64,000 nt of DNA, taken from Escherichia coli. Its GTDB lineage: Bacteria; Pseudomonadota; Gammaproteobacteria; Enterobacterales; Enterobacteriaceae. The translations under genes were made by a program, and so were the position numbers. The stretch is taken from the NCBI RefSeq assembly GCF_045037415.1, contig NZ_CP173438.1; one strand, 5' to 3'. This document shows, piece after piece, positions 41,945 to 42,963 of this stretch. Position 1 is the stretch's first letter. Every line of letters begins with the position of its first letter. Below the pieces are notes generated by a model that was not told where the DNA came from, did not search any database, and was given only the letters and a program-made list of their open reading frames with translations.

Positions 41945-42870
41945 CTCTGTCCCCTGAATTATTACAAATATCCGCTGAAGTACAGGATGCTTTAAAAAAT
42001 AAAAAACCGGTTGTTGCGCTGGAATCGACCATAATTTCTCACGGAATGCCATTCCCACAAAATGCCCAAACCGCAATTGAAGTAGAAGAAACAATTCGTA
42101 AACAGGGCGCAGTACCAGCCACTATCGCCATTATTGGCGGTGTGATGAAAGTGGGCTTAAGTAAAGAAGAAATCGAATTGCTGGGCCGTGAAGGACATAA
42201 CGTGACGAAAGTTAGTCGTCGTGATTTACCTTTTGTCGTTGCTGCAGGGAAAAATGGCGCGACTACCGTTGCATCAACCATGATTATTGCAGCACTGGCT
42301 GGGATTAAAGTTTTTGCAACCGGAGGTATTGGTGGTGTGCATCGCGGAGCGGAACATACCTTCGATATTTCTGCCGATTTACAGGAACTGGCAAATACCA
42401 ATGTCACTGTTGTTTGTGCGGGGGCAAAATCTATTCTCGATTTAGGATTAACAACAGAATATTTAGAAACCTTCGGTGTACCGTTAATTGGTTATCAGAC
42501 AAAAGCGCTGCCTGCGTTTTTCTGCCGAACCAGCCCATTTGATGTCAGCATTCGTCTCGACAGTGCCCGCGAAATTGCTCGCGCGATGGCAGTGAAGTGG
42601 CAAACCGGTTTGAACGGCGGCCTGGTGGTAGCGAACCCGATCCCGGAACAGTTTGCGATGCCAGAAGAAACCATCAATGCAGCAATTGATCAAGCCGTTG
42701 CTGAAGCCGAAGAACAGGGTGTTATTGGGAAAGAGAGTACACCGTTCCTGCTGGCGCGTGTTGCGGAGCTAACCGGCGGTGATAGCCTGAAATCCAATAT
42801 TCAACTGGTCTTTAATAACGCCATTCTGGCGAGCGAAATTGCCAAAGAATATCAGCGTCTCGTGGGTTAA
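41932..42870 (+). CDS. psuG: Pseudouridine-5'-phosphate glycosidase PsuG (YeiN)
   Basis: 312-aa ORF [40 protein letters not shown]... Confidence 0.93.
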   Translation: [312 protein letters not shown]

Positions 42871-42963
42871 TTTCTGGTGGGCAGAAAGCCGTCGCCCGTA
42901 CTCATCAAACATACCAAAACCTGGCGCTGACGCCGGGTTTACTGGCATGAAGGGAAAATCATT

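What the first reader, a model, noticed from the sequence alone, without database searches (positions are those of the whole stretch)
42870..42963. Shared leader motif upstream of psuT and the nupX stub
Both paralogous transporter genes are preceded by gggcagaRagccgtcgccc (42878-42896 and 46107-46125), followed at a variable distance by catgaagRgaWaat...atggatRtMatgagaagtgtt. Conservation of a non-coding 19-mer across diverged paralogs suggests a shared cis-regulatory element (protein operator or RNA leader structure) for the two nucleoside-catabolism modules.
Basis: seen in the sequence. Interest (0 to 1): 0.4.

Follow-up and report, generated by a model that had tools for sequence, protein, structure and literature searches.

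The report
Conserved RNA hairpin before nucleoside transporters
A short stretch of RNA that folds into a small hairpin sits just in front of two related nucleoside-transporter genes in E. coli and many related gut bacteria, is kept by selection, matches no described RNA family, and probably helps set how much transporter is made, though its exact job is unproven.

Summary
The 19-mer is real. The window is E. coli: fruA-psuK-psuG-psuT-yeiL-rihB-nupX remnant-yeiI.

The motif is the core of a stem-loop on the coding strand: 5'-(R)Y-GGGC-[AGNNNGCNGUC]-GCCC-R(Y). It has a 5-6 bp stem and an invariably 11-nt loop.

It sits in the untranslated leader of the transporter gene in both settings, psuG-psuT and rihB-nupX. 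I found it in 56 distinct sequences from at least 10 enterobacterial genera and from metagenomes.

Stem pairs change in a compensatory way (C-G/U-A/U-G; G-C/A-U; G-C/U-A). The sequence before the hairpin is as variable as third codon positions.

E. coli has exactly two copies per genome. No Rfam family matches. No paper or 3'-end dataset I could search mentions it.

The perfect identity of the two E. coli copies, including positions that vary elsewhere, probably also reflects local gene conversion.

Best reading: a selected cis-acting RNA element belonging to the transporter cistron and acting after transcription, as a recognition, processing or stability site. The mechanism is inferred. A DNA operator, a riboswitch or attenuator, and a pure duplication relic are less likely. 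Interest is modest.

The parts
42877..42899 (+). Hairpin 1, psuT copy: G.U, U.G, then GGGC (42879-42882), an 11-nt loop AGAAAGCCGUC (42883-42893), then GCCC (42894-42897) and closing G and U. It starts 7 nt after the psuG stop codon (42868-42870).
   Evidence: The stem is supported by covariation. Predicted stability is about -8 kcal/mol.
42900..42916 (+). C/A-rich, G-free linker ACUCAUCAAACAUACCA, containing the semi-conserved box AUCARACAUACC.
   Evidence: Conserved in most psuT leaders and in some nupX leaders. It is shortened or absent in L104, L132, L147 and L149 and in E. coli nupX, so it is dispensable for hairpin 1.
42917..42940 (+). Hairpin 2: AAACCUGGCG-CUGA-CGCCGGGUUU. It resembles a weak intrinsic terminator, but its U's pair with the upstream A's.
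   Evidence: RNAalifold consensus of 13 leaders. Per-column identity is at least 0.9 in the arms, and L104 carries compensatory CCAGA/UCUGG. It was not called by the terminator scan.
42950..42966 (+). Shine-Dalgarno AAGGGA (42950-42955), spacer, and the psuT start codon (42964-42966).
46063..46095 (+). Hairpin 0: a stem-loop just after the rihB stop (46048-46050), followed by UAUUUAU. Its sequence is not conserved between genera, but a hairpin is present in most nupX leaders.
   Evidence: Fold (z = -4.6 for the whole spacer).
46105..46125 (+). Hairpin 1, nupX copy: U-A, then GGGC (46106-46109), loop AGAGAGCCGUC (46110-46120), then GCCC (46121-46124).
   Evidence: -9.1 kcal/mol. The 5th pair is U-A here and U.G or C-G in psuT.
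46136..46152 (+). Shine-Dalgarno AAGAGA (46136-46141) and the nupX start codon (46150-46152). The linker and hairpin 2 are missing here (41-nt gap relative to psuT).
46150..46261 (+). nupX remnant: codons 1-22 fused out of frame to the last ~50 nt of the gene, with about 1.14 kb deleted.
   Evidence: The same junction is found in 974 of 5426 complete E. coli genomes.

Best explanation
The 19-mer is the core of a small stem-loop formed by the mRNA (+ strand) in the untranslated leader of the PsuT/NupX-type nucleoside transporter cistron. It has a 5-6 bp G+C-rich stem closed by GGGC/GCCC. It carries an 11-nt loop AGNNNGCNGUC, in which G2.U10 and often Y3-G9 can stack above an A.C mismatch, leaving a pentaloop NNGCN. 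The hairpin was already present when the transporter gene duplicated. It has travelled with the transporter gene into two different operon settings, after psuG and after rihB.

Shown: the hairpin is maintained by purifying selection, with compensatory changes, in many enterobacterial genera. It occurs only at these two loci. It corresponds to no described RNA family.

Inferred: it acts after transcription, in cis, to set transporter expression independently of the upstream enzyme gene. It most likely does this as a recognition or processing determinant. One option is that it defines or protects the 5' end of the transporter segment of the polycistronic mRNA after cleavage in the A/U-rich single-stranded stretch just upstream. 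The other is that it binds a housekeeping RNA-binding factor. In the ancestral, psuT-type leader it works together with a second conserved hairpin placed about 10 nt before the ribosome-binding site.

In Escherichia the two copies have in addition been homogenised over about 28 nt, probably by a short gene conversion.
For: - Observation: the 19-mer is real and non-random.
- Paralogue divergence: the paralogues are 52.5% identical at third codon positions, yet the about 30-nt non-coding block differs at one position.
- Orthologues: the hairpin is present before psuT and/or nupX in 24 genome-derived sequences from 10+ genera. With metagenomes the total is 56 distinct sequences. These were anchored on the coding start, not on the motif. 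The upstream gene is always psuG or rihB.
- Single-module genomes keep it. With rihB-nupX only: Leclercia locus L083, Buttiauxella, K. spallanzanii, H11S18/Dryocola. With psuKGT only: K. michiganensis.
- Covariation: 5th pair CG 37 / UA 10 / UG 4 / unpaired 5; outer GGGC pair GC 51 / AU 3 / GU 1; third pair GC 55 / UA 1; 6th pair AU 17 / GC 13 / GU 4. Overall 88.6% of cells pair, against 32-60% when the partner is slid. 0 of 500 shuffles reach the observed covariation score.
- Within one genome, E. coli K-12 psuT has C-G where nupX has U-A. Within E. coli psuT, the alleles AC/GC/GU..GU keep pairing through wobble.
- Selection profile: pairwise identity is 0.2-0.5 in the 8-12 nt before the hairpin, similar to third codon positions (0.49-0.60). 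It is 0.8-0.99 in the stem and at fixed loop positions, and 0.2-0.4 at loop positions 3-5 and 8.
- Loop: the length is 11 nt in all 56 sequences; U10 56/56, G6 54, G9 54, G2 53, C7 50.
- Two lineages replaced the loop or the whole hairpin with a longer perfect hairpin at the same place. These are Leclercia/E. hormaechei nupX at -18.4 kcal/mol and Entomohabitans psuT at -26 kcal/mol. This shows that a stem-loop at this site is what is kept.
- Distribution: only two copies per E. coli genome, and plasmid hits are transposed psuKGT. The covariance model found no copy elsewhere in the window or in 80 loci of more distant NupC-family genes.
Against: - Function is not shown. Nothing on transcript ends, processing or binding proteins exists for these poorly expressed genes in what I could search.
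- The E. coli hairpin is only moderately stable (-7.7 to -9.1 kcal/mol; z = -0.2 to -2.3 against shuffles). That is weak for a nuclease barrier. In the window's psuT allele an alternative small fold competes.
- The distance to the start codon varies from 25 to 68 nt. The distance to the upstream stop codon varies from 8 to over 50 nt. This argues against any mechanism that needs fixed geometry.
- Many covarying sequences are related, so the number of independent events is smaller than the cell counts suggest. G.U (8) exceeds A.C (4) in the lower stem only modestly.
- One metagenomic psuT leader (L123) keeps the loop but has only a 3-bp stem. A few sequences have a mismatch at the 5th pair.
- No conserved promoter or cleavage signal can be read from the sequence upstream of the hairpin.
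Confidence: 0.55

Rival explanations
1. It is a DNA operator. A dimeric transcription factor binds the interrupted inverted repeat GGGC-N11-GCCC in front of both transporter genes and controls an internal promoter. Candidates are the neighbouring YeiL, the HTH-kinase YeiI, or YeiE.
For: The outer four base pairs form a perfect inverted repeat. Regulator genes lie nearby. An RpoS-holoenzyme gSELEX peak inside psuG hints at an internal promoter for psuT (PMC5493296).
Against: - The interior is strongly asymmetric and conserved (AG...GCNGUC). Symmetric position 6/14 is G/T in 53 of 56 sequences, which is non-complementary as DNA but a wobble pair as RNA.
- The two sites in one genome differ by a compensatory double change (C-G against U-A). 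That preserves pairing, not a half-site sequence.
- Lineages that replaced the sequence kept a hairpin.
- No neighbouring regulator co-occurs with the motif in all genomes: yeiL is absent from K. michiganensis-type loci, and yeiI is absent from the Buttiauxella, K. spallanzanii and H11S18 loci.
- No conserved -10/-35 is nearby.
Confidence: 0.1
2. It is the sensor part of a transcription attenuator or a very small riboswitch. Hairpin 1 responds to a ligand or protein (pseudouridine, pyrimidine nucleosides, or a ribosome stopping at the psuG stop codon 7-11 nt upstream). It thereby controls termination at hairpin 2 or access to the ribosome-binding site.
For: - The psuT leader has a conserved hairpin, a conserved linker, a terminator-like hairpin with flanking A and U runs, then the RBS.
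- Hairpin 1 has invariant unpaired nucleotides and a conserved G.U.
- In psuT leaders it always lies within reach of a terminating ribosome.
Against: - No alternative (antiterminator) pairing between hairpin 1 and hairpin 2 could be found, only 4 nt of complementarity (my reading of the sequences).
- No conserved partner for the loop lies within -150..+500 nt.
- Hairpin 2 and the linker are missing from many nupX leaders and the linker from several psuT leaders, while hairpin 1 stays.
- Hairpin 2 has only 3-4 U's, and they pair with upstream A's.
- A 23-nt hairpin is smaller than any known single-hairpin aptamer (from general knowledge).
- There is no Rfam match.
Confidence: 0.12
3. It has no function of its own. 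The similarity is a relic of the duplication, kept identical in E. coli by recent gene conversion between psuT and nupX.
For: The E. coli copies share the variable loop positions (A3, A4, A5, C8) and about 8 nt of upstream flank. The paralogues in Kluyvera and E. hormaechei do not. A 38-nt identical run near the 3' end of the coding regions shows that exchange between the paralogues is plausible.
Against: - It is conserved in genomes with only one paralogue and across 10+ genera.
- The adjacent spacer is as diverged as third codon positions.
- Substitutions are patterned, with fixed and free loop positions and compensatory stem changes.
- The first 100 nt of coding sequence show no raised paralogue identity (77%).
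Confidence: 0.06
4. It is a 3'-end element of the upstream gene: a terminator or exonuclease-blocking hairpin that ends and stabilises the psuKG or rihB message.
For: In psuT leaders the hairpin starts 7-11 nt after the psuG stop codon. Intercistronic hairpins are a known way to give enzyme and transporter genes of one operon different mRNA levels (general knowledge).
Against: There is no U tract after it. Its stability is modest. In nupX leaders a separate hairpin already follows the rihB stop, and hairpin 1 lies 45-85 nt further on. The element is shared through the downstream transporter paralogues, whereas the upstream genes (psuG, rihB) are unrelated.
Confidence: 0.1

Closest known systems
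5'-UTR stabiliser stem-loops (ompA leader type) and processed intercistronic hairpins (papBA, malEFG REP)
   Same: It is a small stem-loop in the untranslated leader or intercistronic spacer of a membrane-protein gene. The ancestral leader has two hairpins separated by single-stranded A/C-rich segments, with the second close to the RBS. The element belongs to the downstream cistron. This comparison rests on general knowledge of those systems plus the anatomy.
   Different: No transcript 5' end or cleavage site is known here. The hairpin is weaker (about -8 kcal/mol). It has sequence-specific loop conservation that simple stabilisers lack. It is single-locus, not repeated like REP.
Protein-binding operator hairpins in mRNA leaders (lambda boxB/N, BglG-type RAT, PyrR binding loop)
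   Same: It is about 20-30 nt long, with a short G+C stem, conserved loop nucleotides and non-canonical pairs. It sits in a leader upstream of a terminator-like hairpin. One E. coli allele even reads CAGAGAG, as in the PyrR loop, and GGC-AGAAA-GCC resembles boxB.
   Different: - Those resemblances do not survive comparison: loop positions 3-5 and 8 vary freely, and GGC/GCC pairing is lost in most genera.
- There is no overlap with the terminator, unlike RAT.
- E. coli has no PyrR (general knowledge).
- No candidate protein co-occurs with the motif.
Small riboswitches (preQ1-I, guanidine-II mini-ykkC, HMP-PP thiS motif)
   Same: It is very small, sits upstream of a transporter gene, has conserved unpaired nucleotides, and is followed in the psuT leader by a terminator-like hairpin.
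   Different: There is no pseudoknot partner or second matching hairpin. The expression platform is dispensable. No Rfam model matches even at E<=10.
Palindromic transcription-factor operators
   Same: It has 4-6 bp inverted-repeat arms 11 bp apart, and it lies in front of two functionally related genes.
   Different: The interior is conserved and asymmetric. There is a G/T at a symmetric position. Compensatory differences exist between two sites of the same genome.

Membership tests
Any Rfam 15 family | Match to a curated covariance model | tested here: not met
   cmscan of window 40000-48000 at E<=10 gave nothing overlapping 42877-42899 or 46105-46125. The only nearby hit is a sub-threshold isrJ match on hairpin 2 (19.6 bits against a gathering score of 37).
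Intrinsic (Rho-independent) terminator | G+C-rich hairpin immediately followed by a run of U | tested here: not met
   Hairpin 1 is followed by GUACUC (psuT) or AAAAUG (nupX). The terminator scan reported no site at hairpin 1 or hairpin 2. Hairpin 2 has only 3-4 U's, which pair with upstream A's.
REP/BIME or other dispersed repeat | Many copies scattered in the genome | tested here: not met
   The median is 2 places per genome in 5424 E. coli genomes, with a maximum of 3, and plasmid hits are a transposed psuKGT. There is no other copy in the window.
Structured cis-regulatory RNA (generic) | Base pairs supported by compensatory substitutions across species | tested here: met
   Four of 8 pairs show changes on both sides. 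88.6% of cells pair, against 32-60% for slid controls. 0 of 500 shuffles reach the observed covariation score. RNAalifold predicts the same 5-bp stem. Caveat: the sequences are related, and no phylogeny-aware test was run.
Structured cis-regulatory RNA (generic) | Demonstrated effect on expression of the downstream gene | not testable with these tools
   No experimental data were found.
Riboswitch | Ligand-binding aptamer coupled to an expression platform through mutually exclusive pairings | tested here: not met
   No alternative pairing or loop partner was found (and inspection). Hairpin 2 and the linker are absent from many leaders that keep hairpin 1. Ligand binding itself cannot be tested here.
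Palindromic DNA operator | Two-fold symmetric conserved half-sites | tested here: not met
   Only the outer 4-6 bp are symmetric. Conserved positions 5/15 (A/C) and 6/14 (G/T) are not complementary.
rRNA/tRNA mimic (autoregulatory r-protein or synthetase site) | Resemblance to a segment of rRNA or tRNA | tested here: not met
   Model R1 run with filters off on the MG1655 rrnH operon (16S, 23S, 5S, three tRNAs) gave a best score of 6.9 bits, E about 1. Only one operon and three tRNAs were searched.

The most novel reading that the evidence does not exclude
Hairpin 1 is the binding site of an as yet unknown trans-acting regulator, either an RNA-binding protein or a small RNA. Alternatively it is an unusually small metabolite-responsive element. 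Either would couple uptake of pseudouridine and pyrimidine nucleosides to their availability across Enterobacteriaceae, making it a new class of riboregulator dedicated to CNT-family transporters.
Probability: 0.12. Interest if true: 0.65.

Novelty: new member of a known kind. Interest (0 to 1): 0.35.

Why it matters
psuT and nupX are among the least understood nucleoside transporters of E. coli, and nothing is known about how they are regulated. A conserved, undescribed RNA element sitting at the enzyme-transporter boundary of both operons gives a concrete handle for studying how cells set transporter levels separately from the catabolic enzymes. It is also a clean example of a non-coding element that has followed a gene through duplication into a new operon context. 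It adds one candidate to the list of enterobacterial leader structures absent from Rfam. The practical stakes are modest. The element is small, confined to one clade and two genes, and may turn out to be an ordinary stability or processing hairpin.

Tried and rejected
1. GGC-AGAAA-GCC mini-hairpin, with or without GAY/GUC. It is competitive in the E. coli folds, but I rejected it. Loop position 8 varies (C/G/U/A) without compensation, and the pairing is lost in most genera.
2. A long-range helix pairing the U-rich flank (UAUUUCU) with the Shine-Dalgarno region. It is predicted for E. coli nupX and psuT, but it is not conserved in the other genera I inspected.
3. A pseudoknot or long-range partner for the loop. 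None is conserved within -150..+500 nt.
4. A regulon. There is no third copy in E. coli genomes, in the window, or in 80 loci of distant NupC-family genes. The only extra hit (L074, 20.6 bits) lies inside a coding region.
5. rRNA/tRNA mimicry. Nothing was found.
6. A conserved promoter just upstream that would make the hairpin the 5' end of a primary transcript. TAATTT and TATTTC or TATGAT in E. coli are not conserved elsewhere.
7. A leader peptide. The ATG in 'catgaag' opens 8- and 3-codon frames and is ATC in K. spallanzanii. The string is the ribosome-binding site.
8. Homology with the long hairpin in the Hafnia and Serratia psuT leaders. I could not establish it.
9. Literature and dataset searches for a psuT/nupX leader, TSS or 3' end. 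Nothing turned up.
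Full report
**What the window is.** The region is the E. coli chromosome segment fruA-psuK-psuG-psuT-(yeiL, minus strand)-rihB-nupX-(yeiI, minus strand)-nfo. This follows from near-identical annotated genomes and from MG1655. In this strain nupX is a remnant: codons 1-22 are fused out of frame to the last ~50 nt. The same junction occurs in 974 of 5426 complete E. coli genomes.

**The observation.**
- GGGCAGARAGCCGTCGCCC occurs exactly twice, at 42879-42897 and 46106-46124. Chance expects 0.04 matches.
- In K-12, psuT and nupX are 88% identical as proteins and 78.8% as DNA, but only 52.5% at third codon positions.
- A non-coding block of about 30 nt with a single difference is therefore not what neutral divergence since the duplication would leave.
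- After the block, the psuT spacer has 41 nt that E. coli nupX lacks.

**Orthologues.**
- A protein-anchored scan of one genome per species and look-ups of selected NupX/PsuT homologues gave 25 leaders from Escherichia, Citrobacter, Enterobacter, Leclercia, Kluyvera, Klebsiella, Buttiauxella, Superficieibacter, Entomohabitans, Dryocola and an unnamed enterobacterium.
- A metagenome scan anchored on the first 30 nt of the coding sequence, not on the motif, added more leaders.
- In all but one leader there is GGGC-N11-GCCC, or a variant of it, at the same place.
- The gene upstream is always psuG or rihB.
- Several genomes have only one of the two modules and still have the motif. Conservation therefore cannot be due to exchange between paralogues.

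**Structure.**
- Across the 56 distinct 35-mers the loop is always 11 nt.
- The stem pairs vary in a compensatory way:

| Pair | Counts |
|---|---|
| Flanking 5th pair | C-G 37, U-A 10, U-G 4, unpaired 5 |
| Outer pair of GGGC/GCCC | G-C 51, A-U 3, G-U 1, A.C 1 |
| Third pair | G-C 55, U-A 1 |
| Innermost pair | C-G 54, U-G 2 |
| 6th pair | A-U 17, G-C 13, G-U 4, unpaired 22 |

- 88.6% of cells pair, against 32-60% when the 3' partner is slid by 1-3 columns. No shuffle of 500 reaches the observed covariation score.
- RNAalifold finds the same 5-bp helix.
- Within E. coli K-12 the psuT copy has C-G where the nupX copy has U-A. Within E. coli psuT, the alleles AC, GC and GU opposite GU all keep pairing.
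- Loop positions are either nearly fixed (A1 48/56, G2 53, G6 54, C7 50, G9 54, U10 56, C11 45) or free (positions 3, 4, 5 and 8).
- G2.U10 (53/56) and Y3-G9 (35/56) could stack on an A.C mismatch, leaving a pentaloop NNGCN.
- These counts include related sequences, so the number of independent events is smaller than the cell counts. I could not run a phylogeny-aware test.

**Selection.** I compared 24 psuT-type spacers.

| Segment | Mean pairwise identity |
|---|---|
| Third codon positions, flanking genes | 0.49-0.60 |
| 8-12 nt between the psuG stop and the hairpin | 0.2-0.5 |
| Stem and fixed loop positions | 0.8-0.99 |
| Free loop positions | 0.2-0.4 |

- The rest of the psuT leader is also conserved. 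It has a G-free linker with the box AUCARACAUACC, and a second hairpin AAACCUGGCG-N4-CGCCGGGUUU with its own compensatory variants. The ribosome-binding site follows.
- K. spallanzanii nupX keeps this whole arrangement. Other nupX leaders have lost hairpin 2, and E. coli nupX has also lost the linker. Several psuT leaders lack most of the linker.
- Hairpin 1 is thus the only part of the leader, apart from the ribosome-binding site, that is common to all.

**Replacements.**
- In Leclercia and E. hormaechei nupX the loop reads AAUCCCGGAUU or GAUCCCGGGUU. This turns the element into a perfect 12-bp hairpin of -18.4 kcal/mol.
- In Entomohabitans psuT an unrelated 14-15-bp hairpin of -26 kcal/mol occupies the site.
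- One metagenomic psuT leader (L123) keeps the loop consensus with a weakened stem, GUC/GAC, which includes a G-C to U-A double change.
- The typical E. coli hairpin is only about -8 to -9 kcal/mol and is not exceptional against shuffles.
- Together these say two things. A stem-loop at this position matters. In most lineages particular loop nucleotides matter too.

**RNA or DNA.**
- Three findings argue for pairing in a single strand rather than for a two-fold symmetric protein site on duplex DNA. The interior is conserved but asymmetric. A symmetric position carries G/T. The two sites in one genome differ by a compensatory change.
- Wobble pairs outnumber A.C in the lower stem only 8 to 4. 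The strand assignment therefore rests mainly on the G.U in the upper part and on the orientation of the genes.

**Distribution and known families.**
- E. coli genomes hold two copies, one per transporter gene. The few plasmid hits are a transposed psuK-psuG-psuT-yeiL block.
- A covariance model built from 24 sequences found nothing else in the window or in 80 loci around more distant NupC-family genes. Its one extra hit lies inside a coding region.
- The model also found nothing in an rRNA operon.
- No Rfam family matches, even at E<=10.
- Full-text searches found no description of a psuT or nupX leader.
- The supplementary files held for one E. coli 3'-end mapping study (PMC7815308) list no end in either spacer.
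- A gSELEX study reports RpoS-holoenzyme binding inside psuG, about 220 bp before its stop. That would allow an internal promoter for psuT, but the resolution is too low to relate it to the hairpin.

**Gene conversion.**
- The two E. coli copies agree at the free loop positions (A3, A4/5, C8) and in about 8 nt of 5' flank.
- nupX leaders of other genera have Y3 and mostly G8. The paralogues in Kluyvera and E. hormaechei differ from each other at several of the 19 positions.
- A short homogenising exchange in Escherichia is therefore likely.
It does not explain the deep conservation.

**Mechanism.**
- Shown: a selected, structured element on the coding strand, belonging to the transporter cistron, unique to these two loci and undescribed.
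- Inferred: it acts in cis on the mRNA. No regulator gene co-occurs with it in all genomes. Its distance to the start codon varies from 25 to 68 nt. No alternative pairing with hairpin 2 or any other partner exists.
- I therefore favour a recognition, processing or stability determinant that uncouples transporter expression from the upstream enzyme gene. One version is a structure that marks and protects the 5' end of the transporter segment after cleavage in the single-stranded, A/U-rich stretch before it. Another is a site for a housekeeping RNA-binding factor.
- I rate a riboswitch or attenuator, a DNA operator, a 3'-end element of the upstream gene, and a functionless relic as less likely, for the reasons listed with each rival.

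**Verdict.** This is a new, small, clade-restricted member of the broad class of cis-acting leader hairpins, and the interest is modest.

Noticed in passing
window 46150-46261: nupX is an internally deleted remnant: codons 1-22 are joined out of frame to the last ~50 nt, with about 1.14 kb lost at a short AAC microhomology. The same junction occurs in 974 of 5426 complete E. coli genomes, so it is a common natural null allele.
   Followed up: partly
window 42917-42940: A second conserved stem-loop (AAACCUGGCG-CUGA-CGCCGGGUUU) lies about 10 nt before the psuT ribosome-binding site. It is conserved with compensatory variants in many genera. It looks like a weak terminator, but its U's pair with upstream A's.
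   Followed up: partly
window 46063-46095: A stable hairpin sits directly after the rihB stop codon, followed by UAUUUAU. A hairpin of unrelated sequence occupies this place in most nupX leaders of other genera.
   Followed up: partly
L001 3659-3696 (psuT) and 6849-6886 (nupX), K-12-type strain: A 38-nt perfectly identical run near the 3' end of the two coding sequences, which are otherwise 52.5% identical at third positions. It is a possible gene-conversion tract between the paralogues.
   Followed up: no
window 40673-40709, 44222-44288 (-), 46276-46321: Sub-threshold matches to the naRNA4 model, which is built on REP-derived RNAs. They mark REP-like elements after fruA, psuT and the nupX remnant (also seen downstream of both genes).
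   Followed up: no
L093 (plasmid pCUPF07A, NZ_CP182175.1 19001-25022): An IncHI-type plasmid from pig faeces carries psuK-psuG-psuT-yeiL and a truncated rihB next to an ISVsa5 fragment. The pseudouridine module has been mobilised together with its leader hairpin.
   Followed up: no
L010, L011, L012, about 40-90 nt upstream of position 4001: The psuT leaders of Hafnia, Serratia and 'Klebsiella sp. BIGb0407' (transporter about 75% identical) lack hairpin 1. They share a different long hairpin, CCUGAAAGG...CCUUUCAGG. Homology to hairpin 1 was not established.
   Followed up: no
L087 3604-3645: Entomohabitans psuT has an unrelated 14-15-bp hairpin (-26 kcal/mol) exactly where hairpin 1 sits elsewhere, and it still keeps the downstream AUAUCAGGCAUAC box.
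   Followed up: partly
MG1655 about 2257650 (inside psuG; corresponds to window about 42650): A published gSELEX screen lists an RpoS-holoenzyme binding peak inside psuG, oriented toward psuT (PMC5493296). I converted the coordinate from the older genome version myself, so it is approximate.
   Followed up: no
L004 7138-7207; metagenome loci such as L135: E. coli has at least two nupX leader alleles. One has 25 nt between hairpin 1 and the ATG. The other has 37 nt and keeps part of the linker (AUCAGACCUGAC).
   Followed up: no
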